This document shows positions 12,508 to 60,036 of a stretch of DNA of 64,000 bases, in pieces; within the stretch, counting starts at the first letter, position 1, and every line of letters begins with the position of its first letter. This stretch comes from a virus. A program made the position numbers and the translations under genes. The notes beneath the pieces are model-generated. The model made no database searches and was not told the origin of the DNA. It saw only the letters and a program-made list of their open reading frames with translations. The stretch covers positions 1-64,000 of IMG/VR virus record IMGVR_UViG_3300042396_000723. One strand, 5' to 3'.

Positions 12508-12699
12508 GGGAAACCCTCCTTTGGGTTTTTGTAAGTAATTTTTGAGAAAAGCTGGAGACTTACTACTTCCTCCGGCTTTTCTCATTCCTATATTATACAC
12601 CAAATTAACAGGAGCTTGAATAAAAAACGGGGTATTTAGCAAGTAAATAATATTAAAATTGTGCGGTGGTAAATTACATTAAATACCCTACAATAATCC

Positions 12700-13035: not shown

Positions 13036-13276
13036 TTTTTCGTTAATAATCTCTCGTTTCCTTTCTTCCCAAATGGGTTGTTTTTTCCAGTGTCTTATTA
13101 TCCCTTCTGAAACTCCAATCTGACTGGCAACCTCTCTGTTGGACAGGGATGGGTTGTCAAGAAATGCCTTAACAGCATCTTTGATCAGATGTGCCTTACC
13201 TCCCTTTATTTCGCAACCTTACGCAATAACAACACTTTAAAGTTAACATAGTTGAAAACATTGCTACAACTTAAAT

Positions 13277-13927: not shown

Positions 13928-13951
13928 AGAACGAACCAGTAACCTGTACAA

Positions 13952-14746: not shown

Positions 14747-14822
14747 ATAAAAACATATGAATACTACGATTTTGTTGCATATTGAGGTTAACATAATCAT
14801 AAACCCTTCTACAACTTAAAAT

Positions 14823-16557: not shown

Positions 16558-17268
16558 ATGGCTGATAAATGTTTGGTAATTTTAAGCGGCGGTCAAGATA
16601 GTACGACTTGCTTGGCGATCGCAAAAAGTAAATTCAAAGAAGTTCACGCAGTAACTTTTAATTATGGTCAACGGCATTTAACCGAAATTGAGAGCGCGAT
16701 CAAAATAGCTGAAAAGTTAAACTTAGCTTCCCATGAAATTATCGATCTAGGTCAGGGGATTTTAAAAGGTAGCTCCCCACTGGTCAGCAACAACGAATTG
16801 GGAGTTTATAAGAATGTTGATGAATTACCTGGCGGGGTAGAACCAACTTTTGTTTATAGCAGGAATATTTTATTTTTAACTATTGCATCTAATCGCGCCG
16901 CCGTTATGGGTATTAATGATATCTTTATCGGTGTCTGTGAAGCTGATTATGCGGGTTATTTTGATTGCAGACTAGATTTTATCAATGTCATGTCGAAAGC
17001 GTTAGGAGAGGGTGTTTATGGTTCGCCCGATGCTTTTAAAATTCATACTCCGTTAATGAGCTTAACTAAAGCCGAATCGGTATTATTAGCTAAGGATTTA
17101 TTGGGTGATGATTTTGATTCAGTGATGGAATTAACCCATACTTGTTATGCGGGTGTTAAGGGCGGATGTGGTAAATGTCACGCTTGTTTGATTCGTGACA
17201 GAGGTTTTCAAGAGGCGGGAATAGTTGACCCAATATGGAAGTTTAGAAATGTATCTGTATTTAGTTGA
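16558..17268 (+). CDS. queC: 7-cyano-7-deazaguanine (preQ0) synthase QueC
   Basis: PP-loop SGGQDS and C-terminal zinc motif CYAGVKGGCGKCHAC; internal ATG preferred over track start 16549. Confidence 0.85.
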   Translation: MADKCLVILSGGQDSTTCLAIAKSKFKEVHAVTFNYGQRHLTEIESAIKIAEKLNLASHEIIDLGQGILKGSSPLVSNNELGVYKNVDELPGGVEPTFVYSRNILFLTIASNRAAVMGINDIFIGVCEADYAGYFDCRLDFINVMSKALGEGVYGSPDAFKIHTPLMSLTKAESVLLAKDLLGDDFDSVMELTHTCYAGVKGGCGKCHACLIRDRGFQEAGIVDPIWKFRNVSVFS

Positions 17269-18361
17269 TCACTCATCCGAACGCGGACAACGCAAAGTTC
17301 TTACTGAGGAGAGATATATAAGCTATTTGCAATCCTACGCATTCGTTGGACAAGCGGGTTTTATTGACACTCAAAAATATTGGGAGGAGTTATTGAGGAT
17401 TCATTTAGCTGATACAACAGCAAAACTAAATGGTGACGTTAACATAAAAGAAGTTTTAGTTGATGAAAACAAACCAGAACATCTGTTTAGTTATGCCTAC
17501 CAAAACCACGAATCTCAATGGTCTGATTCTTGGAATCAGACCATTGAGAAAAACAAGAATATGAATATACATTTAGCGGGTCATTCTGTTAACGTTGACA
17601 TGGACAAAGTGGTGAAGCCTTTACATGAAAACCATTTAACAACATTTGCAGACCAGAAAGAAGTTAAAGATACTTTGTCCATTTTGGACAAAGTATCTGA
17701 CTTAAGACCTAGAGTAATAATTGACTCAGGAGCATTTACAGCTTTTACAACTGGGAAAATAATTAATCCTAAAGATTATGCTACATGGTCTTTAGACTTT
17801 CAGAAGCGATGGGAGCATAAAATGAAATCTCTAAGTTTTATGAACCTGGACGTTATTGGTAATCAAGATGATAGCTGGAAAAATCAATCAATACTTGAAT
17901 CGTTAGGAATGAAACCGATTCCTATTATTACTTTTGGATGTGATAAAAAGCATTTAATTAGAGCATTAGATAACTATGATTATATAGCTTTAGGCGGTTT
18001 AGTTCCCCATAGTAGGAATAAAATCAAACTTCAAAAATGGTTAGATTATTGTTTCAACATAATCATGGGAAGATATAAAGAAACGGGTGTTATGTCAAGG
18101 ATTCATTTACTCGGTATAACAACTGATTGGGTACTGAAAAGATATCCCTGCTATAGTTCAGATTCGTCATCATGGGTTGCTTGTTTAAGGTTTGGCGGCG
18201 GTGCTGCTGCGGGTTTAGATAAAATACCCAGATATAAAGAATCAGATGCCGCGTTATCAGCAACAATTCACACTTTACGATCAGAGGTAGTAAAATATAA
18301 AAAGATGGAAACTGAAGCAACAAATTTATGGAAATCAAGGGGAATAATCTGGGATGACTAA
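17249..18361 (+). CDS. dpdA: DpdA-like DNA-guanine transglycosylase (TGT superfamily)
   Basis: VIIDSGAFT (cf. TGT DSGGFQ), YIALGGL and RIHLLGIT motifs; sits directly after preQ0 genes; ATG at 17249 preferred over TTG 17225. Confidence 0.65.
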   Translation: MYLYLVDHSSERGQRKVLTEERYISYLQSYAFVGQAGFIDTQKYWEELLRIHLADTTAKLNGDVNIKEVLVDENKPEHLFSYAYQNHESQWSDSWNQTIEKNKNMNIHLAGHSVNVDMDKVVKPLHENHLTTFADQKEVKDTLSILDKVSDLRPRVIIDSGAFTAFTTGKIINPKDYATWSLDFQKRWEHKMKSLSFMNLDVIGNQDDSWKNQSILESLGMKPIPIITFGCDKKHLIRALDNYDYIALGGLVPHSRNKIKLQKWLDYCFNIIMGRYKETGVMSRIHLLGITTDWVLKRYPCYSSDSSSWVACLRFGGGAAAGLDKIPRYKESDAALSATIHTLRSEVVKYKKMETEATNLWKSRGIIWDD

Positions 18362-43449: not shown

Positions 43450-43540
43450 CTTTCTGTCTTAATGTTAATTTGGCATATTCAATAGCAAAAAATATGCCCC
43501 CTTTATACTGTTTTTCCCTGTATGGATTGGGGGCTTAAAC

Positions 43541-43697
43541 TTTAAGCTCGTTTTAATCTCGAACCATATTGAACGTGATGGTATAGAGTCTCAACAGTTT
43601 TGAACCGATGCCCACAGTCTGGACATTTCCGCTCTCGGTACTCTTTCCTCGTGCCGACTACACAAGTCTTTTCAGCGTTGCATTTAGGACATTTCAT
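43541..43697 (-). CDS. small zinc-ribbon protein (not in ORF track)
   Basis: Hand translation MKCPKCNAEKTCVVGTRKEYRERKCPDCGHRF... with two CxxC pairs, preceded by GGAGGAGG; coordinates approx. Confidence 0.4.
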
Positions 43698-44050
43698 TAC
43701 AACACCTCCTCCTTCTTGTTGTAAAAGTCTTTTAGTTCGCTAATGGCTTTAATGAGAAGATCAATTTCTGGAGAATAACGCTTCGTACTTGACATCTGGT
43801 TTCTGGTTAATGGGTTAAAAAAGGGGTGTAGCTAGAGGGCTTTCCACCCCAGGAGATTCTTACTTACACAAACGTTTAAATGATTAAACGATTTTTGTCT
43901 AAACATCACCTCCTTCATCTTCGGCTTCAATATCAATTGAAGCATCCGCTTTTTCTAGCAGCCATTCGATAAATTCTTGGTAGATTTCTTCTTTGGTCAA
44001 AGAAGGATAATCTATTTCTTCTGTGTCACCACAAGCTCTAAATATTGCTT

Positions 44051-49083: not shown

Positions 49084-49671
49084 ATGACCGAGCTTAACGA
49101 TGAAATCTTTGATCAGGGAATTGAAAACCTGAAAGAAAATTTTTCCGACGCGATTTTCACCGAACTCAAATATGAAATTTGGTTCGACAAACTCTCTCAG
49201 GAGTTATCAGCTGAAGAATTTGAGACTGCAATCCGTGAGGCAATTTTCAACCTTAGCAAGTGTCCCACGGGAAAAGAGCTTGTAAGCCTCGTTAAAGAAT
49301 CCGAACGTGAGTTAGTAAGTAACTGTTGGTCAAGATGCCTAGAATCGCTTGCTAAACGCCTCCCGTTGAATAATTTAGACGATGCGAGTCAATATGCAAT
49401 CGTTCAACTCGGAGGGATGTCTCACCTTGGGTCGATTGAAAGTACCCAACTCAACTACCTGAGCAACGATTTCAAGACTCATTGGCAAGCCTACCGAAAA
49501 GCCCCGCGAGAATTTGAGCGTCCCACGCAGGTCATCCCCCGTGAGCAAATCGAGTTCAAGCCCAATGGACTCAAGCCACAGATTTCAGAGGAACAGAAGT
49601 TAAAAAATCAGGAATTTCTAAATAACCTGATCGCCACAAAAATGAATAAAAACTTAAATGGAGCGAAATAA
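49084..49671 (+). CDS. hypothetical protein (replication module, possible helicase loader)
   Basis: 195-aa ORF immediately 5' of dnaB; stop overlaps the dnaB start. Confidence 0.45.
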   Translation: MTELNDEIFDQGIENLKENFSDAIFTELKYEIWFDKLSQELSAEEFETAIREAIFNLSKCPTGKELVSLVKESERELVSNCWSRCLESLAKRLPLNNLDDASQYAIVQLGGMSHLGSIESTQLNYLSNDFKTHWQAYRKAPREFERPTQVIPREQIEFKPNGLKPQISEEQKLKNQEFLNNLIATKMNKNLNGAK

Positions 49672-50987
49672 TGGAAACAATAATCATGCAAAACGTTGAG
49701 GCAGAACAAGCCGTTTTGGGAGCGATTCTCTTAGACCCCGAAGCTATGGGGCGAGTTGCGGAAACGCTAACTGCTAAATCTTTTTCCCTGCGATCGCATC
49801 AAACAATCTACAAAGCAGCTTTAGCATTACATTCCGAGGGAATAACCACGGATTTAATGACCGTCACTACCTGGTTATCCGATCAGAAATTACTTGAAAA
49901 AGCCGGGGGACAATTAGGATTAACCCAATTATTAGACCGCACAGTTTCAGCAGTTAACATTGATCAATACGGGCTGTTAATTGCCGATAAGCAAACTCGA
50001 AGAAACCTAATTGAATCTGCCCATAAAATTATTGAATTGGCAGAAGATACCAGTCAACCTTTAGAGACAATTCTCCAAAAGTCAGAGGAACAAATTGCTA
50101 ATATTTCCCAATCAAAATCACAACAGGATTTAGTTTCGATTGGTGAAACTTTAATTGATACCTTTCAAGAAATTGAAGACCGGAGCGAAAGCAAGATTCC
50201 CCCCGGTGTCCCCTCTGGATTTTATGACCTCGATGCTATGACTGGAGGATTCCAACACACCGACTTAATTATTGTGGCAGGAAGACCTGCAATGGGCAAA
50301 TCGAGTTTGGCTTTAAATTTTGGATATAACATTGCCAAAAAAGGGCTACCCGTCGCGGTCTTCAGTTTAGAAATGTCTAAAGGTCAATTAGTCCAAAGAC
50401 TATTATCGAGCGAAACCAAAATTGAAAGTACCCGCATTCGTTCAGGAAACATTCAGCAAGAGGAATGGGAACCTTTGACAACCGCAATTAGTTCCTTAGC
50501 AGAATTACCGATTTATATTGACGACACCTCGAATATTACCATCACCGAAATGCGTTCTGAAGCTCGAAGATTGCAAGCCGATAACGATGGAAAGTTAGGC
50601 TTAATTCTAATAGATTATCTGCAATTAATGGACGGAGGAAGTGATAATCGGGTGCAAGAATTGTCAAGAATTACACGGGGATTAAAGGGAATGGCAAAAG
50701 ATTTAAACGTTCCTGTAGTTGTCCTGTCTCAGTTGAGTCGTAGCGTCGAACAGCGCACCAATAAACGCCCAATGCTTTCAGACTTGAGAGAATCGGGCTC
50801 AATTGAACAAGACGCGGACTTAGTAATGATGATCTATCGAGATGATTATTATAATCCCAACACTTCGGACGCGGGAATAGCTGAATTAATTTTAGCTAAA
50901 CATCGCAACGGCCCCACCGGAACAGTAAAGCTATTGTTCGATTCTCAATTTACCCAATTTAAAAATTTAGTACGGGGGATGAACTAA
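49671..50987 (+). CDS. dnaB: replicative DNA helicase DnaB
   Basis: N-terminal AEQAVLGAILLDPEA, Walker A AGRPAMGKSSLALN, Walker B LGLILIDYLQLM, RecA-like SQLSRSVEQR and arginine finger region. Confidence 0.9.
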   Translation: METIIMQNVEAEQAVLGAILLDPEAMGRVAETLTAKSFSLRSHQTIYKAALALHSEGITTDLMTVTTWLSDQKLLEKAGGQLGLTQLLDRTVSAVNIDQYGLLIADKQTRRNLIESAHKIIELAEDTSQPLETILQKSEEQIANISQSKSQQDLVSIGETLIDTFQEIEDRSESKIPPGVPSGFYDLDAMTGGFQHTDLIIVAGRPAMGKSSLALNFGYNIAKKGLPVAVFSLEMSKGQLVQRLLSSETKIESTRIRSGNIQQEEWEPLTTAISSLAELPIYIDDTSNITITEMRSEARRLQADNDGKLGLILIDYLQLMDGGSDNRVQELSRITRGLKGMAKDLNVPVVVLSQLSRSVEQRTNKRPMLSDLRESGSIEQDADLVMMIYRDDYYNPNTSDAGIAELILAKHRNGPTGTVKLLFDSQFTQFKNLVRGMN

Positions 50988-51420: not shown

Positions 51421-51984
51421 ATGACCGCAGCAACCAAGAAGATAATTGAAAGAATCTTAAAAATTGGTGAGTGGGTAGAGATTGACCCACATAAACACCG
51501 CCCATCTTATCTAATAAGAGGTACAGCATGGCGAGTTGAAAGTTTCAATGTATTAAAACAAACCTGTCAAGTAACTAACGAAAAAACCAGATCGGAAACC
51601 CTAGACTTTGAGGAGGTTTCCGACTCATCCCCATTCAAAAAAACAGATATTGTGCAATTAAAAAAGGATAGCCGTTACATCGGACGGGTGATTATGTGCC
51701 GGGGGAATAAAATCAAAATTCAGTGGGCGAAAGGATTGGCAGAATCCTTAGACTCGGACAAGATAAAACTATTTATTCAGATGGTCAAAGGGGAACAAAT
51801 CCCCCTCGGAAATTACGCTTTCCAGAAAGGCGATCATGTCAAAACTACAGACAAGAATTTTGGCAATGTAATCCTCACTGTAAAAGAATGCTTACCCTCT
51901 GGAATGGTGGTGTTGAGTTCATCAAACGATCCTAATTTATTGCTCCCCGGCTGTGGCTTAACAATTGTTGAGGAGGGTTTCTAA
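51421..51984 (+). CDS. hypothetical protein
   Basis: 187-aa ORF. Confidence 0.5.
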   Translation: MTAATKKIIERILKIGEWVEIDPHKHRPSYLIRGTAWRVESFNVLKQTCQVTNEKTRSETLDFEEVSDSSPFKKTDIVQLKKDSRYIGRVIMCRGNKIKIQWAKGLAESLDSDKIKLFIQMVKGEQIPLGNYAFQKGDHVKTTDKNFGNVILTVKECLPSGMVVLSSSNDPNLLLPGCGLTIVEEGF

Positions 51985-53015
51985 TGCCAACATTCGCAAC
52001 ATTATTCATGGGCGGAGGCGGTGCAGATTTGGGGTTAGAGGCCGCAGGGTTTAAGTCTTTATGGGGAATTGAAAGAGATCCTAAAATTGCAGAAGTAGCA
52101 CGATTAAATTTCCCAAATACCAAAGTATTTAATTCTTGCGCAGGAGACATAAACCCCCGCAGTCTTCCCTATGTTGACCTGCTTTGGATGAGTCCCCCGT
52201 GCCAACAGTATTCAAACGCTAGACGGGGTAATTTAGGCGATCACAAAGACAAGGACGCGGGGCTGTACTGTAGCAGTTATATCGCAGCGATTGATCCTCG
52301 ATGGGTAGTTTTAGAAAACGTCCCTGGCTACTCAAAATCACCTGTATTCGAGAAAATCCTACAATCCTTAATTCGCCACGGATATCGCTATCATTGGTTA
52401 ATACTTGACGCGGCGGATCACGGGGTTCCCCAAAACCGGAAACGGTTGATTATGTGGGCAGTTAAAAATGATCAACCTCTCCCCTATTTCCCCGAATCAA
52501 AACCCAAAAAGGGATGGTATCAAGCCATTGCTGACTTAATCCCAGAAATGCAGGACTGTGAGCTTGCAGACTGGCAGATTAAGCGACTAAATGAATTGGG
52601 TTATTTACCAGAAAAAGCCTGGATTGATATTGGGAAACAACTCATTAGACAGGCTACAGTTCGGGAGTCAAACGATCCAAGTTTTACTATTGTGAGTGGT
52701 CATGTTAACTCGCATTCTCCTATCCTGTTAATCCCCCGAGCGGGAGCTTGCATCAAGAATATTCTCCCGACTCCACAGAACAAACCCTGCCCAACAATTC
52801 GAGCTATGAAGGATGTTTCAACCCATTGGGCGGACATCGTGCAGGGAAGCCAAATTAAACGAATTAGTCAGAAAGCGACGGCACGGCTCCAGACTTTCCC
52901 CGACTCCTATCAATTCCCAGAATCCAAAACTTTAAGCCAACAAATAATAGGAAACGCCGTGCCTCCGTTATTGGCTAAAGAATTAGGTCTGGCAATCTTA
53001 AAATCAATTAACTAA
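51984..53015 (+). CDS. DNA (cytosine-5)-methyltransferase
   Basis: Motif I LFMGGGG, motif IV SPPCQQYS (PCQ), motif VI VLENVPG. Confidence 0.85.
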   Translation: MPTFATLFMGGGGADLGLEAAGFKSLWGIERDPKIAEVARLNFPNTKVFNSCAGDINPRSLPYVDLLWMSPPCQQYSNARRGNLGDHKDKDAGLYCSSYIAAIDPRWVVLENVPGYSKSPVFEKILQSLIRHGYRYHWLILDAADHGVPQNRKRLIMWAVKNDQPLPYFPESKPKKGWYQAIADLIPEMQDCELADWQIKRLNELGYLPEKAWIDIGKQLIRQATVRESNDPSFTIVSGHVNSHSPILLIPRAGACIKNILPTPQNKPCPTIRAMKDVSTHWADIVQGSQIKRISQKATARLQTFPDSYQFPESKTLSQQIIGNAVPPLLAKELGLAILKSIN

Positions 53016-53017
53016 CC

Positions 53018-53461
53018 ATGAAAACATCAACTAAAGCCAAAACCAAACCCGCTAAAAAAGGATTTCAACCCGCCCCTAAAATTCATGACAATGACTTACA
53101 TATATTTTCTTGTGAGTGCCTTTGGTATGACTCAGAAACCGACGAGGAACTATTGACCGAATTGTGGACAGTCAAACTCGATAAACGACGGTTTCGGACT
53201 GATGTCAGGCAAGCCATTATTACGGGGTTGATCTATTGCTTTCTTGAAACACCGGAAGCAACGGAACGGCATATTAACAGGGTGTTTTTTTGGAATAATA
53301 AATCCCGTGCCTATGAGCCATTAGGGGCGGTGTCTGACGCGCCGATGGACGGATCTAGTCCGGTTGATTTTGAAGCCGATCCGGTGGTGGCTTATGAGCG
53401 ATTAAAAGCCCTTTGTGTCGAGATCGAAGTTATCAAGGTTGACGATTGCTTTTGCTCTTGA
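53018..53461 (+). CDS. hypothetical protein
   Basis: 147-aa ORF. Confidence 0.5.
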   Translation: MKTSTKAKTKPAKKGFQPAPKIHDNDLHIFSCECLWYDSETDEELLTELWTVKLDKRRFRTDVRQAIITGLIYCFLETPEATERHINRVFFWNNKSRAYEPLGAVSDAPMDGSSPVDFEADPVVAYERLKALCVEIEVIKVDDCFCS

Positions 53462-53469
53462 CCTTTTAA

Positions 53470-53515
53470 AAATACACAAATAAACTTGTTTTTTTTGCGT
53501 TATTTGTGTATAATG
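53470..53515 (+). promoter_or_regulatory. promoter-like element with overlapping inverted repeat (extended -10 TGTGTATAAT)
   Basis: ACACAAATAA...TTATTTGTGT inverted repeat and a TATAAT box about 16 nt after TTGTTT. Confidence 0.4.
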
Positions 53516-53519
53516 AAAA

Positions 53520-53780
53520 CAGTCAAGAATCAAGGTTTACCAATGTAGTTTGTTGGTAAATAGTTAACCAGTCTAAGCTCTTTACTGAGCTACGTTATTG
53601 GGAAGTGTTTAAGTTCATACCTTGGGATGCGTTGCCAGTTCCAAGCTCTATAACTAAGTGATTAAACAGATGTACAGCAATTAAGTCAGCAATACTGCTG
53701 ATACCCTCTTAATAAGCAGCGATTTCCCACAAATCCCCATAATCTGTTATAACTGGTGAGTAGTTATATGAGGTTGTTTT
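53520..53780 (+). ncRNA. candidate structured noncoding RNA or long 5' leader
   Basis: About 260 nt without an ORF downstream of the promoter-like element; hairpins TTTACCAA/TTGGTAAA and CAGCA/TGCTG. Confidence 0.25.
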
Positions 53781-53781
53781 T

Positions 53782-53982
53782 ATGGTAAGACCCCACGAAC
53801 ACAGGCAAGAAATCAAAGCCAGACTCAAACCAGAAGATAGGGAGAAGTTGAAAGCCCTCGTCGTTGGCATGGGTTATCGTTATTGGAGGCAGGAGTCACC
53901 GGAACCCGCATGGACTGAGTTTTTGGAGGCGATCGCAACGGGCGATATAATTCTTTACAAAAAAGTCGGGGGAGGGGGTTGA
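53782..53982 (+). CDS. hypothetical small protein
   Basis: 66-aa ORF. Confidence 0.35.
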   Translation: MVRPHEHRQEIKARLKPEDREKLKALVVGMGYRYWRQESPEPAWTEFLEAIATGDIILYKKVGGGG

Positions 53983-54043
53983 CCTTTTGGGATAAGTGGG
54001 GTACAGTTATAAATGTAGAAGGTTGAAATAAAGGAACAAGACG

Positions 54044-54274
54044 ATGACCACTCAAACCGAGCCAACTAAAATTTACTGCGACCGGAAATTTTCACTTTAC
54101 GACGTAACACCCTGGACAGCCGCAAGGCTGACGAATTTCTTTAACTTGGTTGACGATGGTGAAGACGTGAAACGTGCCGTCAATGGGTTGAAAACCTGGA
54201 AAGGTAGTCAGTCCTACCGCTTGACAATGAGTGACAAAGCTTCGATTGATTACGTTATTGAATGCTACGGTTAA
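54044..54274 (+). CDS. hypothetical protein
   Basis: 76-aa ORF. Confidence 0.45.
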   Translation: MTTQTEPTKIYCDRKFSLYDVTPWTAARLTNFFNLVDDGEDVKRAVNGLKTWKGSQSYRLTMSDKASIDYVIECYG

Positions 54275-54342
54275 AGATTAATTAACCGAGTAAGGTGGCT
54301 GCCCTACTCGGTTCGAAGTCAATCATTTAAGAGGAGTATACC

Positions 54343-54852
54343 ATGTCAAGCAAAAAACAGGTCAAGCAATCTTTAGAACTGACACTAAGTTTAGCCGAAT
54401 CACTAGGGCCATTAACACGGTCAGAAGCTAAAGAGTTTTTTGGATTATTGGGAGAACTCAATAAAGTTTTCAGTAAAGTAGTTGACCCCGATGCTCACGG
54501 CCTAAAACCCGAACCCAGTCCCGAAGTAGTTAAACACCCCATTGATGCCCTACTCAAAAAAGGAAAGGTCGAACTACCAGAGGGACGCTACAAACAACTG
54601 ATTCAGATTCATGACGAGCTTTTAGTCCTCAAGATTAAATTCTTGAGTGCGAAGCAAAATCAGAATGTCACCTGGTTCCCCCTTGAGTGGAACGGGGATA
54701 AGTCAGCCGCGTTGTACTTGTCATCGTCGGAATGGTCTATAGCTCCCATCAAGTACCGAGATGACAACGATTTGACGGGCGAGTGGGAAGGATTTGATCT
54801 TACTGAGTTCATGAGTATGAACTGCCCAGAGTTTGATCAAGACGAATATTGA
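54343..54852 (+). CDS. hypothetical protein
   Basis: 169-aa ORF. Confidence 0.5.
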   Translation: MSSKKQVKQSLELTLSLAESLGPLTRSEAKEFFGLLGELNKVFSKVVDPDAHGLKPEPSPEVVKHPIDALLKKGKVELPEGRYKQLIQIHDELLVLKIKFLSAKQNQNVTWFPLEWNGDKSAALYLSSSEWSIAPIKYRDDNDLTGEWEGFDLTEFMSMNCPEFDQDEY

Positions 54853-54904
54853 TTTCATGGGAGGTCTTACCCTCCCTCCAAGAAGTAAAGCAGGAGAACA
54901 AATT

Positions 54905-55063
54905 ATGCTATATCGCATCACCCGAATCAAAACCGCACCCGACAGAAAAGACCGTCAAGGGTATTATTTAGAAGCCTTGAATGAGTTAGAGGCTTTGACA
55001 AGATTTCATAACCAATTCCCTGAATTTGTAGGGGAAGAATTAGAGTTAGAGGAATGGAATTAA
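54905..55063 (+). CDS. hypothetical small protein
   Basis: In-frame ATG with AGGAG 8 nt upstream; the track's longer form would overlap the previous gene. Confidence 0.4.
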   Translation: MLYRITRIKTAPDRKDRQGYYLEALNELEALTRFHNQFPEFVGEELELEEWN

Positions 55064-55088
55064 AAGACCTCTAATTCAACTTAAAACT

Positions 55089-55118
55089 AACCAGGGGTTT
55101 ATATTCCCTGGTTTTTTG
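55089..55118. terminator. bidirectional intrinsic terminator
   Basis: AACCAGGG/CCCTGGTT stem followed by TTTTT, between converging genes. Confidence 0.7.
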
Positions 55119-55122
55119 CTGT

Positions 55123-55719
55123 TTATCTAATCACAGGGACAGGAATAATCCCCATCAGAATGCCAGATATTTCCTGAAACATTCGCGTAGTTGTTTGCGT
55201 TGCGTCAATTATAATCCAGTTATTTTGCCTAGCCAATTCCAGATATCCGAAGCGAACCCGATCTAAAAAAAGCAAGTCTCGTTCAACCTTGTCCAGAGGT
55301 TTGTCGAGATCGCGGCGCACCGCCACCTCAACAGGACAATCGAACAAAATCACCATATCGGGATCAATTCCCCCCGTCGCCTCGTGATTTAGCTTCCTTA
55401 AATTATCTAAATTAAGCCCGTGCCCATATCCCTGATAGGCAAGTGTTGAATCCGTGTATCGATCACACAATACCAAATCAGAATCTTCTAACAAATATCT
55501 AATCGTGGGATTGTGTTTAATCCTATCCTTCAGGATTAATTTAAGCTGCTGCTCCGGCGTTAAACACCCATTCTTTAATTCAAAACGAACGTCATAATCG
55601 CAGGGTTCTCTTGTGATGTAGAACTTTAACTTTAACGCCGTGAAATGGTCGCAAAGTTTTCTAATTTGGGTTGTTTTCCCACTGCGGTCAATACCTTCAA
55701 AAGCAATCAATTTACTCAT
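55123..55719 (-). CDS. tmk: thymidylate kinase
   Basis: P-loop FEGIDRSGKTTQ, DRY-like LCDRYTDSTLAYQG and lid region; start at ATG overlapping the upstream stop. Confidence 0.8.
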   Translation of the reverse strand: MSKLIAFEGIDRSGKTTQIRKLCDHFTALKLKFYITREPCDYDVRFELKNGCLTPEQQLKLILKDRIKHNPTIRYLLEDSDLVLCDRYTDSTLAYQGYGHGLNLDNLRKLNHEATGGIDPDMVILFDCPVEVAVRRDLDKPLDKVERDLLFLDRVRFGYLELARQNNWIIIDATQTTTRMFQEISGILMGIIPVPVIR

Positions 55720-55880
55720 TTCATCCTCATCCAATTTTTAATCAAATCATCTTTAATCATACCTTGCCTTATTAATTCAATTATATATTCTCTAGCTTCC
55801 TCCAGTGTCAATATATCCACATTACGTTTAATTATCGCAAGTTTAAATTCTTGCTCCATTGTTAGCTGTGTTGGTTCCAT
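55716..55880 (-). CDS. hypothetical small protein (not in ORF track)
   Basis: 54-aa hand-translated ORF whose TGA overlaps the tmk ATG (ATGA). Confidence 0.35.
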   Translation of the reverse strand: MEPTQLTMEQEFKLAIIKRNVDILTLEEAREYIIELIRQGMIKDDLIKNWMRMK

Positions 55881-55912
55881 TTCCGTTGTTATAAGAATAT
55901 CAACACATAGAT

Positions 55913-55976
55913 TATATCAAAAAATATTTTGATTTTTATACCTCTTTAATACAGAATCAAAATATTTTTTTGATTT
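55913..55976. promoter_or_regulatory. pair of palindromic operator-like sites (ATCAAAA-N-TTTTGAT)
   Basis: ATCAAAAAATATTTTGAT and ATCAAAATATTTTTTTGAT about 45 bp apart in the divergent region between the tmk operon and the RHH gene. Confidence 0.4.
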
Positions 55977-56011
55977 ACCTGTTGCCAATTGCTCCTGATG
56001 ATGGATTTAAT

Positions 56012-56040
56012 TTGCCAATGCGTATAGTATAGAAATATAT
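56012..56040 (+). promoter_or_regulatory. sigma70-like promoter
   Basis: TTGCCA-17 nt-TATATA upstream of the 56063 start; shares ATGCGTATAKTATAGAA with the promoter at 56269. Confidence 0.4.
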
Positions 56041-56062
56041 AAATACAGCAGGAGATGGCACA

Positions 56063-56272
56063 ATGCGCGACTATATAAACAGAGTCCCCGACTATGGGGA
56101 AAAGAAAAAGCCTCACAATCTGAGTTTGACCGACACGGCGTGGCAACGGCTTGATAAATTAGCTGCGCTCTTGGGAGTGTCCAGGAGTGAGTTCGTCGAA
56201 CGCCTATCCCGTGGAGCGATTGCCCCACAAGACTTACAAGCCTTTTATAAAATTTTTTTAAAAAAAGGTTGA
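56063..56272 (+). CDS. ribbon-helix-helix (CopG-like) regulator
   Basis: LSLTDTAWQRLDKLAALLGVSRSEFVERL fits an RHH fold. Confidence 0.5.
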   Translation: MRDYINRVPDYGEKKKPHNLSLTDTAWQRLDKLAALLGVSRSEFVERLSRGAIAPQDLQAFYKIFLKKG

Positions 56273-56298
56273 CAATTTCTAAAGTATGCGTATATTAT
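56269..56298 (+). promoter_or_regulatory. sigma70-like promoter
   Basis: TTGACA-17 nt-ATATTA/TATATT upstream of the 56328 start. Confidence 0.45.
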
Positions 56299-56327
56299 AG
56301 AATTTGTAAACGCACAGAGGTAACGCC

Positions 56328-57131
56328 ATGACAACCGCAACCACAGCAAAAACCAAAACCGCAGCAAAAACTAAAACCCCTGAGTGGAAATGGAATAATA
56401 ATCTGGGGTGTGATGCCCTAAAACTCCCTACAAAGGGATGTCACGTTGACAACAGAGGAAACGTCTGGAAAGACGGCGACTCCATTGGTAACGTCACCCC
56501 GTTGCCAAATTCAGTTAAGGTGACACCCCTAGAATGGGTTGTCACCCACGAACAAAAACAGGAAGCCGTTTCCTGCGAAAAGCTACACGGGAGCTACAAA
56601 AAAAACGCGACTCCTGCCCGTCGTAAAGAATCCCCCGATGGGATGCGGGGAGGCAATTCTCAGTGGGGAGAAGTCTCTGGCCCTAAAGCCCATTTTGTGG
56701 CTGATGAGTACGAGGTGATTGTCACCTACACGGCAACTAAAGCCGTCAATCAATTCAGGGAAATTATTGAGGGAAAACCCAAGTTTCCTTCCCCCACTAC
56801 CATTGCCTATGAAACGGGCTATGGGAAAGAAACGGAATATACCGTGACCGAGTTGGCCGTCTTAGACTTGCCTACCGAAAAAGTGGAGAAGGTCTACACA
56901 GACCAACGAAAACACCTCTATGGAGAGGCAATCAAGGTTGTCAAAGAATACCTTGACAATTTAGATAAACCCGTTGAAGGGCTGTTAAAGGTCGGTGACA
57001 GCGTGATTCACCCTGTATATGGACAGGGAACTGTCACAAAGGCTTTCGGGACTAAAAACCCCACCTACCAGTCCGTTTGCGCGGATTTCCCCTGCGGGAA
57101 CAAGATGGTAGGAAAATGTGACCTGATATGA
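56328..57131 (+). CDS. hypothetical protein
   Basis: 267-aa ORF with Thr/Ala/Lys-rich N-terminus. Confidence 0.55.
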   Translation: MTTATTAKTKTAAKTKTPEWKWNNNLGCDALKLPTKGCHVDNRGNVWKDGDSIGNVTPLPNSVKVTPLEWVVTHEQKQEAVSCEKLHGSYKKNATPARRKESPDGMRGGNSQWGEVSGPKAHFVADEYEVIVTYTATKAVNQFREIIEGKPKFPSPTTIAYETGYGKETEYTVTELAVLDLPTEKVEKVYTDQRKHLYGEAIKVVKEYLDNLDKPVEGLLKVGDSVIHPVYGQGTVTKAFGTKNPTYQSVCADFPCGNKMVGKCDLI

Positions 57132-57187
57132 CCTTTTCACTATGATTACCCCACGGAAGCCACAGCTAAAAACAGAGAGGAAAAACA

Positions 57188-57685
57188 ATGACAACTTTCA
57201 CAAAACCAGAAAACCTTTTTGATTCAGTTGATTTTCAAGGATTTGTCGTCGGAGAAGACGACGCGGTAACAACAGTATTGTATCGGGGTCAAGTCCCCGA
57301 TTTTAAGCGGAATAAAAAACAGGTCGTAAAGTTTGACTTCGACCTTCACTGCCTAACGGCAAAACACTGGTTTCTAGCTATAGAGCTATCTACTTCTGAC
57401 CTTTTGTTTAAGGAGGTAGAAAGTTGTCCTGTTGAACTTCCCAATGAGTTCAAGGATTCAGTTGTCCTGCACCCTGTAAACGGGAAAGTGGGCGTTTGGG
57501 TTGCGCCGATGTCACCCACTGATGTTTCGGGTTGGCAAAAAGCTATGGAAACTACAGCGACAGAGGTAAAAGCCTCTGGTAGTGTGAAGTTTCGAGGGCT
57601 TCACAACCTGTTCAACAGGCTATCCCGCGTTACCCCCAAAACAGGGGTTGTTGGGGGTGCTAAATTCCCGACATGGAGAGACTAA
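57188..57685 (+). CDS. hypothetical protein
   Basis: 165-aa ORF. Confidence 0.55.
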   Translation: MTTFTKPENLFDSVDFQGFVVGEDDAVTTVLYRGQVPDFKRNKKQVVKFDFDLHCLTAKHWFLAIELSTSDLLFKEVESCPVELPNEFKDSVVLHPVNGKVGVWVAPMSPTDVSGWQKAMETTATEVKASGSVKFRGLHNLFNRLSRVTPKTGVVGGAKFPTWRD

Positions 57686-57710
57686 AAGTAGCGATCTCAG
57701 GTTAGCTCCT

Positions 57711-57737
57711 AGCACGGTTCGATTCCGTGCGGTCGCA
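57711..57737 (+). other. tRNA 3'-end-like element (T-arm plus acceptor-like), not a complete tRNA
   Basis: CACGG-TTCGATT-CCGTG followed by CGGTCGCA; no D-arm or anticodon arm can be built upstream. Confidence 0.3.
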
Positions 57738-57774
57738 TTCCCGAAAGGGATTATTAACTACATAGGCTAAAGCA

Positions 57775-58056
57775 ATGAAGAAACATCAAATCAATGAGCA
57801 ACTTAGTAAGTTATTGAAACTTACTAACTGCTCTAACCTAGAGGTAACGGTTGACAACAACACCAGGGATTGTATGACCGTCTGGAAGCTATGGGGTAAA
57901 GGTGGGCAAATTGCCCAAGCCGAAGCACGGTTTGGATCGGAATATTCTGATCAACCCGATGGTTTTGCCTTCTATTTAGAAGGCTACAACTGGACAGATT
58001 ACTGTCCTACAGTTCAAGATTGTGCCAGCCAACACAAGGAGCGCGCTCTTGTCTAA
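57775..58056 (+). CDS. hypothetical protein
   Basis: 93-aa ORF. Confidence 0.45.
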   Translation: MKKHQINEQLSKLLKLTNCSNLEVTVDNNTRDCMTVWKLWGKGGQIAQAEARFGSEYSDQPDGFAFYLEGYNWTDYCPTVQDCASQHKERALV

Positions 58057-58057
58057 T

Positions 58058-58222
58058 ATGACCCATTATTTCGGCTACGAAGTCGAGATTAAAGATAAAT
58101 CAGGGAAGTACGCCTGGTTTATCTACCAAGACGGGGTAATCATCTTTTCAAGTGGCTACGATTACCCCACAGAAGCCACAGCCTATGACTGCGCTTGCAG
58201 TCGCATTGACACATTATTCTAA
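58058..58222 (+). CDS. hypothetical small protein
   Basis: 54 aa from the in-frame ATG (track's TTG start at 58022 overlaps the previous gene). Confidence 0.35.
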   Translation: MTHYFGYEVEIKDKSGKYAWFIYQDGVIIFSSGYDYPTEATAYDCACSRIDTLF

Positions 58223-58233
58223 GGAAAAATCAA

Positions 58234-58614
58234 ATGGAAATCATTAACGCTACACCCCATCAAATCGTTATCTGTAGCAACCAAGGGGTTGTCCAAGATG
58301 CAAAGACTAAGCAATTCACAGCTTCGGCTGTTGAGATCCTCCACACCCTGCCACCATCGGGAATCATCCCCCGCGTGGCGATGGGGAATACCGAATCCGA
58401 ACCCATTTTAGGTATTCCAGTCCAAAGCGTTCAATATGGCGAGATTGAGGGACTCCCCCCTGCGTCTCCCGATGTTTATTATGTAGTGTCGGGACTGGTA
58501 GCAGCAGCCGCCGTTAAAGTGAACAGGGCTGATTGCCTGGCTCCGGGTGCGCTAGTCCGCAATTCTGCCAACCCATCAGAGGTGTTAGGCTGTCTTTTTT
58601 TGCAAAAGCCCTGA
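58234..58614 (+). CDS. hypothetical protein (possible frameshift partner of downstream zinc-ribbon ORF)
   Basis: 126-aa ORF ending just after a T7 run. Confidence 0.45.
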   Translation: MEIINATPHQIVICSNQGVVQDAKTKQFTASAVEILHTLPPSGIIPRVAMGNTESEPILGIPVQSVQYGEIEGLPPASPDVYYVVSGLVAAAAVKVNRADCLAPGALVRNSANPSEVLGCLFLQKP

Positions 58615-58721
58615 TTGGCGACGGTTGCCCCCGGTGTGGTAGTCATAGGCTGGTTAGATATGGTTACACCGAACACGGTCGCCGCCGAATGAAATGCAAG
58701 GATTGTAATAAATTATTTTAA
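58533..58721 (+). CDS. zinc-ribbon (InsA-like) ORF in -1 frame, probably expressed only as a fusion
   Basis: CPRCGSHRLVRYGYTEHGRRRMKCKDCNKLF; only a TTG start, no SD; lies in the -1 frame relative to 58234-58614. Confidence 0.35.
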   Translation: MPGSGCASPQFCQPIRGVRLSFFAKALIGDGCPRCGSHRLVRYGYTEHGRRRMKCKDCNKLF

Positions 58722-58725
58722 AATC

Positions 58726-58757
58726 AACCCTCTAAATATTTAGAGGGTTCTTTTTTT
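58726..58757. terminator. bidirectional intrinsic terminator
   Basis: Perfect palindrome AACCCTCTAAATATTTAGAGGGTT followed by T7. Confidence 0.75.
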
Positions 58758-58759
58758 GA

Positions 58760-59449
58760 TTATCTGATAATCGTTAACGTCGTAGTCTCTGGCAACTTCA
58801 CCCACGGATAAACGATCCGCCAAACATCGTGACTATAAATATTTTTCGTCATGTACCGGGCGTCGGGAACTTGTTTAATCTCTATCCCCATCTTAATACT
58901 CATCGCTTTGAGAGGTCGCCAACTGAAGTTAGACTCATGAACTTTATTGAACTTGGCAACCCTGATGATTGACGAATAATCAAAAAGTTCATCCAAAGCC
59001 TCGGACAGTTGATTGTTTTCTTCCTCAAGCAGTGCTTTCTCGGCCTCTAACTTTTCTACCTCTAACGCCAATCGTCCAGCCTCTAGCAAAGCCTGAGCAT
59101 AGGTTTGTGGTAACGCAAGCGGGGTCTGAACGTGGTTATTCTTAGCAAGGGAGAAAGCCTCAACTAACCGTTCTTTGCAATCCAAAACCTGATCACTGTT
59201 TCGGGAAAACGTCATCAAAAGTGTTGCTTGTGCTTCATTCAAGAAACAGTAAGAGACTTCGTAAGCCCCACCCTGCGGGCGTCTCACCACGTCCGTTTTA
59301 AACGCGACTGGTGTTTTTCGTTCTAATCGGTCTAAATACTTTGTGATTGTTTGCAGTAAGTTCTTATGTTGAATCCCCAGTTCATCAGCAATCAATCGGG
59401 AATCGACAACTAAGGTGTCATTCTGTGTGGTAATGTCAAGAATAGCCAT
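58760..59449 (-). CDS. phage regulatory protein Rha / antirepressor-like
   Basis: N-terminal LVVDSRLIADELGIQHKNLLQTI resembles the Rha DNA-binding domain; central coiled coil. Confidence 0.55.
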   Translation of the reverse strand: MAILDITTQNDTLVVDSRLIADELGIQHKNLLQTITKYLDRLERKTPVAFKTDVVRRPQGGAYEVSYCFLNEAQATLLMTFSRNSDQVLDCKERLVEAFSLAKNNHVQTPLALPQTYAQALLEAGRLALEVEKLEAEKALLEEENNQLSEALDELFDYSSIIRVAKFNKVHESNFSWRPLKAMSIKMGIEIKQVPDARYMTKNIYSHDVWRIVYPWVKLPETTTLTIIR

Positions 59450-59604
59450 TGTTTACTCCGTATAAGTAAGTTGTGGTTAGACCCGTTCAAAAGCCAAAAA
59501 CTTTTGGCGGGTTGCCTATTTATATTATAATACAAACCCAATATCTTCACCAATAAAAATAACCCAACAATTAATAAATCATCGGGTGTGTTGTCCAATT
59601 TTAA

Positions 59605-60036
59605 TCAGTGTGCATTATTATTATAGCACCCTATTTCATCATCAACCATTGCTGAAACCAAAGGTTTTCTTTCTGGAAATAAATCTTTAATTGACCTGAC
59701 AGCATCAATATAAGACTTACCGAGGTATGTTCCATTCTCTCCAAAACTAACAGGGATATCAGAAACCGCCCACCACCCAGACCGACCTCTGAACTCAATA
59801 TACCAATAACCATAGTTGGTATTTTCTCCCGTTGTTTGGGATATTAAATTATTTAATTGTTCTGTTTTTGTTTGCATTCGCAACATCATTTCCTCTCTAA
59901 TTTTCCCTTGAAGTTCCCAGATATCTTTTTTTATAATGTCGTTCATCTGATTAGCTAATCTCATCTTGTACCCTGAATCCGTAGTAGCATTCTCGTACTC
60001 GGTTATTAAATTTTTTAATGCTTCCGTATCCATCAT
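59605..60036 (-). CDS. hypothetical protein
   Basis: 143-aa ORF. Confidence 0.45.
   Translation of the reverse strand: MMDTEALKNLITEYENATTDSGYKMRLANQMNDIIKKDIWELQGKIREEMMLRMQTKTEQLNNLISQTTGENTNYGYWYIEFRGRSGWWAVSDIPVSFGENGTYLGKSYIDAVRSIKDLFPERKPLVSAMVDDEIGCYNNNAH

What the first reader, a model, noticed from the sequence alone, without database searches (positions are those of the whole stretch)
53470..53781. Promoter with operator-like inverted repeat followed by about 260 nt of ORF-free, hairpin-rich sequence
An extended -10 (TGTGTATAAT) sits inside the inverted repeat ACACAAATAA/TTATTTGTGT, and the next 260 nt have no credible ORF in a genome that is otherwise tightly packed. They contain an 8-bp hairpin (TTTACCAA/TTGGTAAA) and others, so this may be a regulatory sRNA or a structured leader of the downstream small-gene cluster.
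Basis: seen in the sequence. Interest (0 to 1): 0.5.

Follow-up and report, generated by a model that had tools for sequence, protein, structure and literature searches.

The report
Truncated IscB guide-RNA relic in cyanophage
The ORF-free, hairpin-rich stretch is the promoter and first 168 nt of a known guide-RNA scaffold (HEARO/omega RNA of the Cas9-ancestor nuclease IscB); a 5.4-kb deletion removed the rest of the RNA, the nuclease gene, a CRISPR array and an integrase, all of which sister phages still carry.

Summary
In detail: a promoter-like region with a perfect 12-bp inverted repeat, then 320 nt with no credible ORF, including the reported hairpin. It is not a new sRNA or riboswitch-like leader.

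Window 53522-53689 is the first 168 nt of a HEARO RNA (Rfam RF02033), the omega-RNA guide scaffold of IscB. It is the only Rfam hit in the 64 kb: 58.9 bits, below the 83-bit gathering score, E=2.3e-9.

The window is a PaV-LD-like Planktothrix phage. Sister-phage contigs have the same upstream ORF and promoter. They then carry a full 216-nt HEARO (122-127 bits), a 432-aa IscB, a CRISPR array of 36-nt repeats, small ORFs and an integrase. Only after these comes the 66-aa ORF that here follows directly.

Here about 5.4 kb is replaced by 47 nt of unmatched sequence. The window holds no IscB, CRISPR repeat or integrase. A second assembly (L004) has the identical junction.

Best reading: an inactivated relic whose promoter now probably drives the downstream small genes, with the relic as an accidental leader.

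The more interesting lead lies in the sister phages. There the HEARO 5' end and P1 strand are complementary to the CRISPR repeat, which suggests a tracrRNA-like split guide.

The parts
53018..53461 (+). Upstream 147-aa ORF, homologue of PaV-LD ORF011R. It is the last gene before the variable locus.
   Evidence: nucleotide homology to PaV-LD runs to window 53447 (= PaV-LD 7865). No Pfam or PHROGs family.
53458..53486 (+). Candidate promoter P1: TTGACC, 17 bp, TAAACT. Predicted start near 53493, which would give the RNA a leader of about 29 nt.
   Evidence: 9 of 12 consensus match. Both hexamers are conserved in all four sister sequence variants. Function not shown.
53486..53514 (+). Predicted start at 53521/53522, which is nt 1 of the HEARO scaffold.
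   Evidence: TATAAT in the window clade, TACAAT in the L005/L009/L010/L014/L016 clades. The spacer is 17-18 bp. Not listed by the scan because the -35 matches only 3 of 6.
53472..53511 (.). Perfect 12-bp inverted repeat ATACACAAATAA / TTATTTGTGTAT with a 16-nt spacer. It spans the -35 of P2 and overlaps its -10.
   Evidence: It has 3-4 uncompensated mismatches in two sister clades. Role unknown.
53522..53689 (+). Nt 1-168 of a HEARO RNA (IscB omega-RNA scaffold): the truncated relic.
   Evidence: Rfam RF02033: 58.9 bits, E=2.9e-11 for the region and 2.3e-9 for the whole window. nhmmer with a profile of 10 non-phage HEARO RNAs gives E=3.5e-19 and is confident up to 53689. The 168 nt are identical to the intact 216-nt HEARO of L025 (168/168).
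53522..53533 (+). HEARO nt 1-12 (GUCAAGAAUCAA). Complementary over 12 contiguous pairs (one G-U) to nt 14-25 of the sister phages' CRISPR repeat.
   Evidence: Shuffled repeats pair with all 12 terminal nt in 0.12% of trials. The test was chosen after the pairing was seen.
53535..53561 (+). It occupies the position of the two small hairpins that helix P1 encloses in the Rfam consensus.
   Evidence: In L008 the G-U closing pair becomes A-U, so the pair is kept.
53561..53568 (+). P1 3' strand (UAGUUAAC). It pairs poorly with the RNA's own 5' end, but nt 42-47 form 6 contiguous pairs with the 5' end of the sister CRISPR repeat (GUUAAU).
   Evidence: Well-aligned canonical HEARO RNAs have 6-7 Watson-Crick pairs in this cis helix.
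53617..53651 (+). Conserved HEARO hairpin (ACCUUGGGAUGC...CAGUUCCAAGCUCU), intact here.
   Evidence: 11 of 11 pairs are kept in the window. Most of these pairs show compensatory changes across the 16 sequences.
53690..53736 (+). 47 nt of unmatched filler at the deletion junction. It replaces HEARO nt 169-216, iscB, the CRISPR array, three small ORFs and the integrase.
   Evidence: found only in the window and L004. No significant similarity to the intact HEARO 3' end (P=0.2-0.7). It forms 9 consecutive pairs with the GUUAUUGGG strand, P about 0.05.
53737..53781 (+). Sequence that in PaV-LD and L003 lies directly after the integrase stop codon. It holds the ribosome-binding site GAGG (53770-73) of the 66-aa ORF.
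53782..53982 (+). 66-aa ORF, homologue of PaV-LD ORF019R. It is now fused behind the omega-RNA promoter and relic.
   Evidence: 89.6% nt identity to PaV-LD 11542-11771. No Pfam or PHROGs family.
53788..53824 (-). Protospacer-like site matched 35/37 by a spacer of sister contig L010. The BLAST segment covers 34 nt with 1 mismatch.
   Evidence: The same spacer matches L010's own copy of this ORF 37/37.

Best explanation
The region is the promoter plus the 5' 168 nt of an IscB guide-RNA gene (HEARO / omega RNA).

In sister PaV-LD-like phages the same promoter is followed by a full 216-nt HEARO RNA. After it come iscB (432 aa, RRXRR and HNH domains), a CRISPR array of 36-nt repeats, three small ORFs and a tyrosine integrase.

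In this phage one deletion of about 5.4 kb, patched with 47 nt of unmatched sequence, removed five things:
- the last 48 nt of the RNA, which hold the family's most conserved motif, the 3' strand of the pseudoknot and the original 3' strand of the long-range helix;
- iscB;
- the CRISPR array;
- the three small ORFs;
- the integrase.

What remains is an orphaned, structurally incomplete scaffold that most likely cannot guide anything.

The promoter is intact and no terminator-like site follows it. The relic is therefore probably still transcribed, now as an accidental 260-nt 5' leader of the 66-aa ORF and the small genes behind it.

Shown: family identity, truncation point, orthology with intact loci, and absence of iscB, array and integrase from the window. 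Inferred: loss of function, promoter activity, read-through into the 66-aa ORF.
For: Family identity:
- HEARO is the only Rfam match in the window, 53522-53737, 58.9 bits against a gathering score of 83, E=2.3e-9 window-wide.
- An nhmmer profile built only from 10 non-phage HEARO RNAs hits 53524-53712 at E=3.5e-19. It covers model positions 3-175 of 209, with confidence falling after 53689.

Orthology with intact loci:
- 13 IMG/VR contigs carry the same upstream ORF end and promoter, then a full HEARO at 122-127 bits.
- 6 metagenome contigs, partly the same assemblies, also carry the intact form.
- In 9 of the 13 IMG/VR contigs a 432-aa ORF starts at +252 (428 aa in L006; two contigs end before it; cut to 74 aa in L011). 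It has Pfam RRXRR 1.7e-72 plus HNH, and matches solved IscB structures at 1e-29 to 1e-39.
- Arrays of 3-19 repeats lie downstream, with 58 unique spacers in all.

Deletion:
- Window homology to L003 stops at 53689 and resumes at 53737. In L003 these two points are 5,376 bp apart.
- The conserved 3' motif AGUG...AUAACAUUGnCGAGGCnAACnUUAC is absent from the window.
- tblastn finds no IscB or integrase in the window, and there is no CRISPR repeat at up to 3 mismatches.
- L004, a separate 27-kb assembly, is colinear with window 51966-59605. It has 9 mismatches and the identical junction, so the junction is not an assembly artefact.

Repeated decay of the locus:
- L011 keeps HEARO but lost most of iscB and the array through a different 2-kb deletion.
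- L006 and L025 keep only 3 degenerate repeats.
- PaV-LD lacks the whole promoter-HEARO-iscB-array block.

Other:
- No terminator-like site lies between 53515 and 53781.
- The HEARO structure is backed by covariation: 23 of 31 predicted pairs show compensatory changes.
Against: - No transcript data exist, so promoter use, the transcription start (53493 or 53521) and read-through are all inferred.
- The 47-nt filler happens to offer 9 consecutive pairs to the 5' strand of the long-range helix (P about 0.05), so a partial fold cannot be excluded.
- The relic keeps the whole 5' region that is complementary to the sister CRISPR repeat, so a residual trans activity is conceivable.
- Only 64 kb of a genome of about 95 kb was seen. 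By synteny with PaV-LD the unseen part is the structural module, but an iscB there is not formally excluded.
- The host-genome scan uses short exact peptide words and finds only close relatives, so a host IscB cannot be ruled out.
Confidence: 0.85

Rival explanations
1. The truncated RNA works as a decoy. It is expressed from its intact promoter and keeps the 5' segment and P1 strand that are complementary to the sister phages' CRISPR repeat. It could therefore soak up the crRNAs, or the IscB, of a co-infecting cassette-bearing sister phage and protect this phage: an RNA-based anti-IscB/CRISPR countermeasure.
For: - The promoter and HEARO nt 1-168 are identical to an intact copy (168/168 against L025).
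- 12 + 6 bp of complementarity to the repeat are retained.
- Sister arrays do carry spacers that match this phage: 35/37 at 53788-53824, and 31 nt with 2 mismatches at 10590-10620.
Against: - Only one allele is known (window and L004, identical across the feature), so there is no evidence of selection on the truncated form.
- The same event also removed the integrase module, as a single random large deletion would.
- It is not yet shown that IscB uses the array at all.
- The matching spacer also matches its own genome 37/37, so it is not clearly a weapon.
Confidence: 0.04
2. It is an evolved structured 5' leader or cis-regulator (attenuator or riboswitch-like) of the downstream small-gene cluster, or a free-standing regulatory sRNA.
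For: - It lies between a promoter and the 66-aa ORF with no terminator in between.
- It contains stable hairpins.
Against: - In PaV-LD and L003 the 66-aa ORF follows the integrase after about 48 nt with no such leader.
- The sequence is orthologous to a HEARO RNA that precedes iscB in the sister phages.
- No other Rfam family matches.
- Fold energy is only marginally better than shuffles.
Confidence: 0.05
3. It is a complete but divergent omega RNA that still guides an IscB or IsrB supplied in trans, by the host or by an unseen part of the phage genome.
For: - cmscan aligned it end to end to the model, positions 1-211.
- The filler can pair with the long-range helix strand.
Against: - The score is 68 bits below that of the closest intact sister copy (58.9 against 126.9) and below the gathering score.
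- The family's most conserved 3' motif and the pseudoknot 3' strand are missing.
- The filler is not significantly similar to any HEARO 3' end.
- There is no IscB in the window, and no Planktothrix locus turned up in the genome scan.
Confidence: 0.03
4. The junction is an assembly chimera and the real genome carries the intact cassette.
For: Metagenome-derived sequences of related phage variants can mis-join.
Against: An independent 27-kb IMG/VR contig (L004) has the same junction and filler, and differs from the window at 9 other positions.
Confidence: 0.01

Closest known systems
HEARO RNA (Rfam RF02033), the omega RNA of IscB/IsrB OMEGA systems. Sources: Weinberg et al. 2010 and Altae-Tran et al. 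2021, both from memory; Goltsman et al. 2022, PMC9755519, read.
   Same: - Sequence and core helices of nt 1-168.
- Sister copies pass the Rfam threshold, sit directly 5' of an RRXRR+HNH ORF, and show the family's covarying helices.
- PMC9755519 reports that 65% of HEARO-nuclease 5' UTRs hit RF02033 and that over 16% of such fragments look viral or prophage-derived.
   Different: - The window copy lacks the 3' quarter and the nuclease gene and scores below threshold.
- In the phage lineage the cis P1 helix is degenerate.
- The best -10 element puts the predicted start at scaffold nt 1, so there may be no 5' guide in cis.
- No TnpA or IS ends were seen, and the locus sits at one fixed site.
CRISPR-associated IscB, for example DelIscB. 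Sources: Altae-Tran et al. 2021, not held here; Zhang et al. 2025, PMC12660989, read.
   Same: The sister phages pair an IscB with a CRISPR array, and an RNA segment is complementary to the repeat. PMC12660989 describes the same logic for DelIscB: repeat and anti-repeat in the guide RNA.
   Different: - In DelIscB the array lies upstream of the ORF and is part of one continuous ncRNA. In the sister phages the array lies downstream of iscB and the HEARO RNA has its own promoter upstream.
- The carrier is a phage.
- None of this is present in the window itself, which holds only the relic.
tracrRNA of type II CRISPR-Cas9 (established knowledge).
   Same: The topology inferred for the sister phages: the 5' part of the scaffold RNA pairs antiparallel with the repeat, so that the spacer comes to lie where the omega-RNA guide normally lies.
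   Different: - No processing, crRNA ends or Cas9 are known here.
- The duplex is short (12 + 6 bp) and interrupted by a hairpin.
- There is no array in the window.
Phage-borne CRISPR arrays used against competitors or hosts, such as cyanophage N-1 and huge phages (from memory).
   Same: Sister arrays sit in a phage genome, differ strongly between near-identical phages, and at least two spacers match PaV-LD-like phages.
   Different: - The adjacent effector candidate is IscB rather than a Cas protein.
- No cas1 or cas2 was seen.
- One spacer matches the carrier's own genome perfectly.

Membership tests
HEARO RNA (RF02033) / IscB omega RNA | Covariance-model score at or above Rfam's gathering score (83 bits). 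| tested here: not met
   The window scores 58.9 bits. Orthologous sister copies score 122-127 bits.
HEARO RNA (RF02033) / IscB omega RNA | Homology to family members over the scaffold. | tested here: met
   nhmmer profile of 10 non-phage members gives E=3.5e-19 over model positions 3-175 of 209. Nt 1-168 are identical to the intact L025 copy (168/168) and syntenic with the sister loci.
HEARO RNA (RF02033) / IscB omega RNA | Complete set of conserved helices: P1, pseudoknot, long-range helix, two internal hairpins, plus the conserved 3' motif. | tested here: not met
   One hairpin is intact at 11/11 pairs. The 3' strand of the second hairpin, the pseudoknot 3' strand and the AUAACAUUGnCGAGGC motif are deleted. 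The long-range helix is only mimicked by the filler, 6/9 to 9 consecutive pairs depending on register, P about 0.05.
HEARO RNA (RF02033) / IscB omega RNA | Located directly 5' of an IscB or IsrB ORF (RRXRR/PLMP + RuvC, with or without HNH). | tested here: not met
   No IscB in the window by tblastn or Pfam. In the sister contigs that extend far enough, a 428-432-aa ORF starts at +252, and the L003 protein has RRXRR and HNH. 10 of 17 genomic relatives scanned have HEARO directly upstream of the ORF.
HEARO RNA (RF02033) / IscB omega RNA | 5' guide segment contiguous with the scaffold. | not testable with these tools
   This needs transcription-start mapping. Promoter P2 predicts a start at scaffold nt 1 (no guide); P1 predicts a 29-nt leader. 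No target for such a leader was found in the window or PaV-LD.
tracrRNA-like RNA of a CRISPR-associated IscB/Cas9-type system | Anti-repeat complementary to the repeat of an adjacent CRISPR array. | tested here: inconclusive
   Sister phages: HEARO nt 1-12 pair with repeat nt 14-25, and nt 42-47 with repeat nt 1-6. Cofold energy is -27.2 against -10.0 kcal/mol for the HEARO 5' segment alone. Whole-RNA duplex energy is beaten by 28 of 1000 shuffles. A 12-bp run anywhere in the RNA has P=0.11; pairing of the 5' terminal 12 nt has P=0.001, a post hoc test. A repeat variant (C25U) keeps the pair as G-U. The window has no array.
IS200/IS605-type mobile element carrying IscB | TnpA or terminal hairpins, with copies at different sites. 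| tested here: not met
   All phage copies sit at one site behind the ORF011R homologue. No transposase was seen in L003 between HEARO and the integrase. The ends were not analysed further.
Any other curated RNA family (riboswitch, leader, sRNA) | Rfam match. | tested here: not met
   Only chance-level hits (E of 0.16 or more) besides HEARO in 53300-54100, and none window-wide at E of 0.05 or less.

The most novel reading that the evidence does not exclude
The relic marks a locus at which PaV-LD-like cyanophages carry a natural split-guide IscB system.

In this reading a HEARO RNA is transcribed from its own promoter with no guide in cis. It acts like a tracrRNA: its 5' 12 nt and its P1 3' strand pair with crRNAs from a fast-changing CRISPR array downstream of iscB. 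That would be a living intermediate between OMEGA and type II CRISPR, carried by a phage and probably used in phage-phage conflict or self-regulation.

An even bolder extension is that the truncated copy in this window still acts as an RNA decoy against that system. I put that extension at about 0.04 on its own.
Probability: 0.4. Interest if true: 0.8.

Novelty: new member of a known kind. Interest (0 to 1): 0.45.

Why it matters
By itself the window feature is a dead end: a pseudogene of a known guide RNA. It explains an odd ORF-free gap and warns against annotating it as a new sRNA or riboswitch.

Its value is as a pointer. In a bloom-forming cyanobacterium's phage lineage, the IscB locus exists in several states:
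- complete, with a CRISPR array;
- IscB and array deleted (L011);
- array eroded (L006, L025);
- RNA truncated (this window);
- absent (PaV-LD).

This is a natural deletion series at one locus. None of the 39 closest genomic relatives, and neither of the two other cyanophage IscB loci checked, has an array nearby. The complete form shows repeat/scaffold complementarity and a degenerate cis P1 helix. That makes the question of how omega RNA split into crRNA and tracrRNA directly testable with sequences now in hand.

It also suggests that phages may use Cas9-ancestor nucleases with adaptive-looking arrays.

Tried and rejected
- Rfam at gathering thresholds found nothing in the window, and there are no tRNAs. 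The hit appears only in E-value mode.
- PaV-LD region 8542-14771 has no HEARO. Its ORF018R, which I first suspected to be IsrB, is a genuine tyrosine integrase.
- Ten mid-size window ORFs were scanned for IscB-type domains: none.
- Origin of the 47-nt filler: no match in any fetched locus, in PaV-LD, or in IMG/VR other than L004. I considered that it is a diverged HEARO 3' end and rejected this: alignment to intact 3' ends is no better than shuffles (P=0.68 and 0.22), and the 9-bp complementarity is borderline (P=0.05).
- A cis guide upstream of the scaffold used for homing: no site with 2 or fewer mismatches in PaV-LD or elsewhere in the window.
- A second anti-repeat site, HEARO nt about 158-203 (best duplexfold hit): it is disrupted without compensation by the L009/L010 repeat variant, so I did not favour it.
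- The CRISPR repeat is not in PLSDB plasmids, GenBank phages or the paper library.
- Pfam and PHROGs gave nothing for the flanking 66-, 76-, 147- and 169-aa ORFs.
- Most of the 31 metagenome pattern hits were chance matches; 6 were real.
- Altae-Tran et al. 2021 is not held in the library, so statements about it rest on memory and on PMC12660989 and PMC9755519.
- No covariance model of my own was built; Rfam plus nhmmer sufficed.

Full report
**What is in the sequence**

The reported features are all present.
- A perfect inverted repeat lies at 53474-83 / 53500-09. It extends to 12 bp (53472-83 / 53500-11) and spans a promoter-like pair of hexamers, TTGTTT (53486-91), 17 bp, TATAAT (53509-14).
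- The "extended -10" is one base out of register.
- The consensus scan lists an overlapping second candidate instead: TTGACC (53458-63), 17 bp, TAAACT (53481-86).
- The stretch 53462-53781 has no ORF of 60 aa or more on either strand.
- The TTTACCAA/TTGGTAAA hairpin (53536-43 / 53553-60) extends to 11 bp.
- Perfect 12-bp inverted repeats occur at 14 loci in the window, against about 0.1 expected.
- Fold energy alone is unimpressive, z = -1.79.

**Identity**

- At gathering thresholds Rfam finds nothing in the window, and there are no tRNAs.
- In E-value mode one family matches, and it is the only hit in all 64 kb: HEARO (RF02033) at 53522-53737. The score is 58.9 bits against a gathering score of 83, with E=2.9e-11 locally and 2.3e-9 window-wide.
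- HEARO is the structured 5'-UTR RNA of IscB-type nucleases. It serves as their guide RNA (omega RNA), with the spacer at its 5' end (PMC9755519).
- An independent sequence profile built from 10 non-phage HEARO RNAs hits 53524-53712 at E=3.5e-19. It covers only model positions 3-175 of 209, with confidence dropping after 53689.

**Genomic context**

- The window is a relative of Planktothrix phage PaV-LD, with 77-98% nucleotide identity in blocks.
- Homology to PaV-LD runs to 53447, near the end of the ORF011R homologue, and resumes at 53737, just after the PaV-LD integrase stop and ahead of ORF019R.
- Between these points PaV-LD has 3.7 kb (ORF012R to the integrase ORF018R) and no HEARO in the part scanned.

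**Sister phages resolve the structure**

- A degenerate pattern from the conserved hairpin retrieved 14 IMG/VR contigs.
- 13 of them have the same upstream ORF end and the same promoter region, followed by a full 216-nt HEARO at 122-127 bits.
- In 9 of the 13 a 432-aa ORF starts at +252. L006 has 428 aa, L007 and L016 end before the ORF is complete, and L011 is cut to 74 aa. The L003 protein carries Pfam RRXRR (1.7e-72) and HNH domains and matches solved IscB structures at 1e-29 to 1e-39.
- Six metagenome contigs, partly the same assemblies, are also intact.
- In L003 the order is: HEARO, iscB, a leader of about 100 nt, a CRISPR array (13 copies of GTTAATGATTGTATTGGTTCTTGACTGACTTGATAC with spacers of mostly 35-45 nt), ORFs of 202, 93 and 104 aa, a 378-aa ORF aligning with the PaV-LD integrase gene, and then the 66-aa ORF homologue.
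- Arrays differ strongly between otherwise near-identical contigs: 58 unique spacers, with the most degenerate repeat at the iscB-distal end.

**What happened in the window**

- The window is identical or near-identical to the sister copies up to 53689, which is HEARO nt 168 (...AATTAAGTCAG).
- Then come 47 nt with no match anywhere except L004.
- Homology resumes at 53737. In L003 the two junction points are 5,376 bp apart.
- The missing 48 nt of the RNA include the family's most conserved motif and the 3' strands of the second hairpin, the long-range helix and the pseudoknot.
- The HEARO structure is well supported on an alignment of phage and genomic members: 23 of 31 predicted pairs show compensatory changes.
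- The window has no IscB or integrase by tblastn, and no CRISPR repeat or array.
- L004 comes from a separate 27-kb assembly. It is colinear with window 51966-59605, has 9 mismatches elsewhere, and has the identical junction. The junction is therefore real.
- The truncated allele is rare. No further copy turned up in the metagenome scan.

**The cassette decays repeatedly**

- L011 keeps HEARO but lost most of iscB and the array through a different 2-kb deletion.
- L006 and L025 retain three degenerate repeats.
- PaV-LD lacks the block altogether.

**Most likely function now**

The remnant is an orphaned, incomplete guide-RNA scaffold. Its loss of function is inferred.
- The promoter is unchanged and no terminator-like site follows it. 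The relic is therefore probably transcribed as the 5' leader of the 66-aa ORF and the small genes behind it.
- This leader is an accident of the deletion. In PaV-LD and L003 the 66-aa ORF follows the integrase gene after about 48 nt.
- The inverted repeat over the promoter is perfect only in the window clade. It has 3-4 uncompensated mismatches in two other clades, so an operator or hairpin role is unsupported, though not excluded.

**The lead in the sister phages (inference)**

- The best -10 element places the predicted start at scaffold nt 1, so this RNA may carry no guide in cis.
- HEARO nt 1-12 (GUCAAGAAUCAA) pair contiguously with repeat nt 14-25.
- HEARO nt 42-47 (GUUAAC, the 3' strand of helix P1) pair with repeat nt 1-6 (GUUAAU).
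- The cofold energy is -27.2 kcal/mol, against -10.0 for the HEARO 5' segment alone.
- Well-aligned canonical HEARO RNAs close P1 in cis with 6-7 Watson-Crick pairs that covary. The phage RNA manages only 2+2+1 interrupted pairs, whereas the repeat's 5' end pairs better with the same strand.
- This topology would place a spacer exactly where the omega-RNA guide normally sits, as in crRNA:tracrRNA.
- The statistics are mixed. Best duplex energy is beaten by 28 of 1000 shuffles. A 12-bp run anywhere has P=0.11. Pairing of the terminal 12 nt has P=0.001, but that test was chosen after the fact. There is no true covariation; one repeat variant merely keeps a G-U pair.
- None of 39 genomic IscB relatives (up to 61% identity; Symploca, Hormoscilla, Crocosphaera, Ktedonobacter and others) has an array within 4 kb. 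Neither do the Microcoleus and Nodularia phage IscB loci within 3.5 kb.
[quoted passage not shown] CRISPR-associated IscBs such as DelIscB are known, but with the array upstream and fused into one ncRNA (PMC12660989).

**Spacer targets**

- Only two spacers found targets in the sequences I hold.
- One L010 spacer matches window 53788-53824 at 35/37, which is codons 3-14 of the 66-aa ORF on the antisense strand. It matches L010's own copy 37/37.
- Another L010 spacer matches window 10590-10620 with 2 mismatches.

**Verdict**

The finding is a truncated member of a known RNA family. It is of modest interest in itself, but it points to an unusual phage-borne IscB-CRISPR locus.

Noticed in passing
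L003 (reverse complement) 4590-7140; also L008, L009, L010, L012, L014, L015, L018, L033, L045: Sister PaV-LD-like phage contigs carry HEARO, a 432-aa IscB and a CRISPR array of 36-nt repeats (GTTAATGATTGTATTGGTTCTTGACTGACTTGATAC). There are 58 unique spacers across the contigs, and no cas1 or cas2 in the flanks seen. The repeat is absent from PLSDB plasmids, GenBank phages and the paper library.
   Followed up: partly
L010 3902-3938 (spacer) against L010 7515-7551 and window 53788-53824: A phage-borne spacer matches its own genome 37/37 in the 66-aa ORF homologue, antisense to codons 3-14. It matches the window 35/37 and PaV-LD 32/34. This could be self-targeting, autoregulation or the lack of a TAM; it is unexplained.
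   Followed up: partly
window 10590-10620 (inside ORF-free gap 10511-10724, next to a 12-bp inverted-repeat locus at 10639-10679): A second L010 spacer matches here: 31 nt with 2 mismatches, in an intergenic stretch.
   Followed up: no
L011 8263-8770: An independent decay of the same locus. HEARO is intact, iscB is cut after about 73 codons and joined to the last degenerate repeat: a 2,042-bp deletion relative to L003.
   Followed up: yes
window 50797/50798 (DnaB-like helicase ORF 49671-50987) against PaV-LD 4786-5208: The PaV-LD helicase gene has an extra 423 bp that reads like a mini-intein (starts CLTGDSLI, ends VVHNS). The window's helicase lacks it.
   Followed up: partly
window 53448-53736 against PaV-LD 7866-11541: This phage has no integrase anywhere in the 64 kb. 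It also lacks homologues of PaV-LD ORF012R-014R, 016R-018R and the PAPS reductase ORF020R. It may be an integrase-less variant.
   Followed up: partly
window 13952-14746: A 264-aa ORF with a just-sub-threshold match to the Tet/JBP 2OG-Fe dioxygenase domain (33 bits against a cut-off of 34.9). A C5 cytosine methyltransferase lies at 51984-53015. Together they hint at DNA base modification.
   Followed up: no
window 43450-44050: The largest ORF-free gap in the window (601 nt). No Rfam hit at E of 0.05 or less.
   Followed up: no
window 17513-17549 and 17668-17698: Two long perfect palindromes about 150 nt apart, both inside the 378-aa ORF 17225-18361, which has no Pfam family.
   Followed up: no
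L090 (Nodularia phage vB_NspS-kac68v162, record 62191-65680): Here the IscB homologue with its upstream HEARO is flanked by genes annotated as IS607-family and other transposases. This is a mobile-element context, unlike the fixed locus in the PaV-LD-like phages.
   Followed up: no
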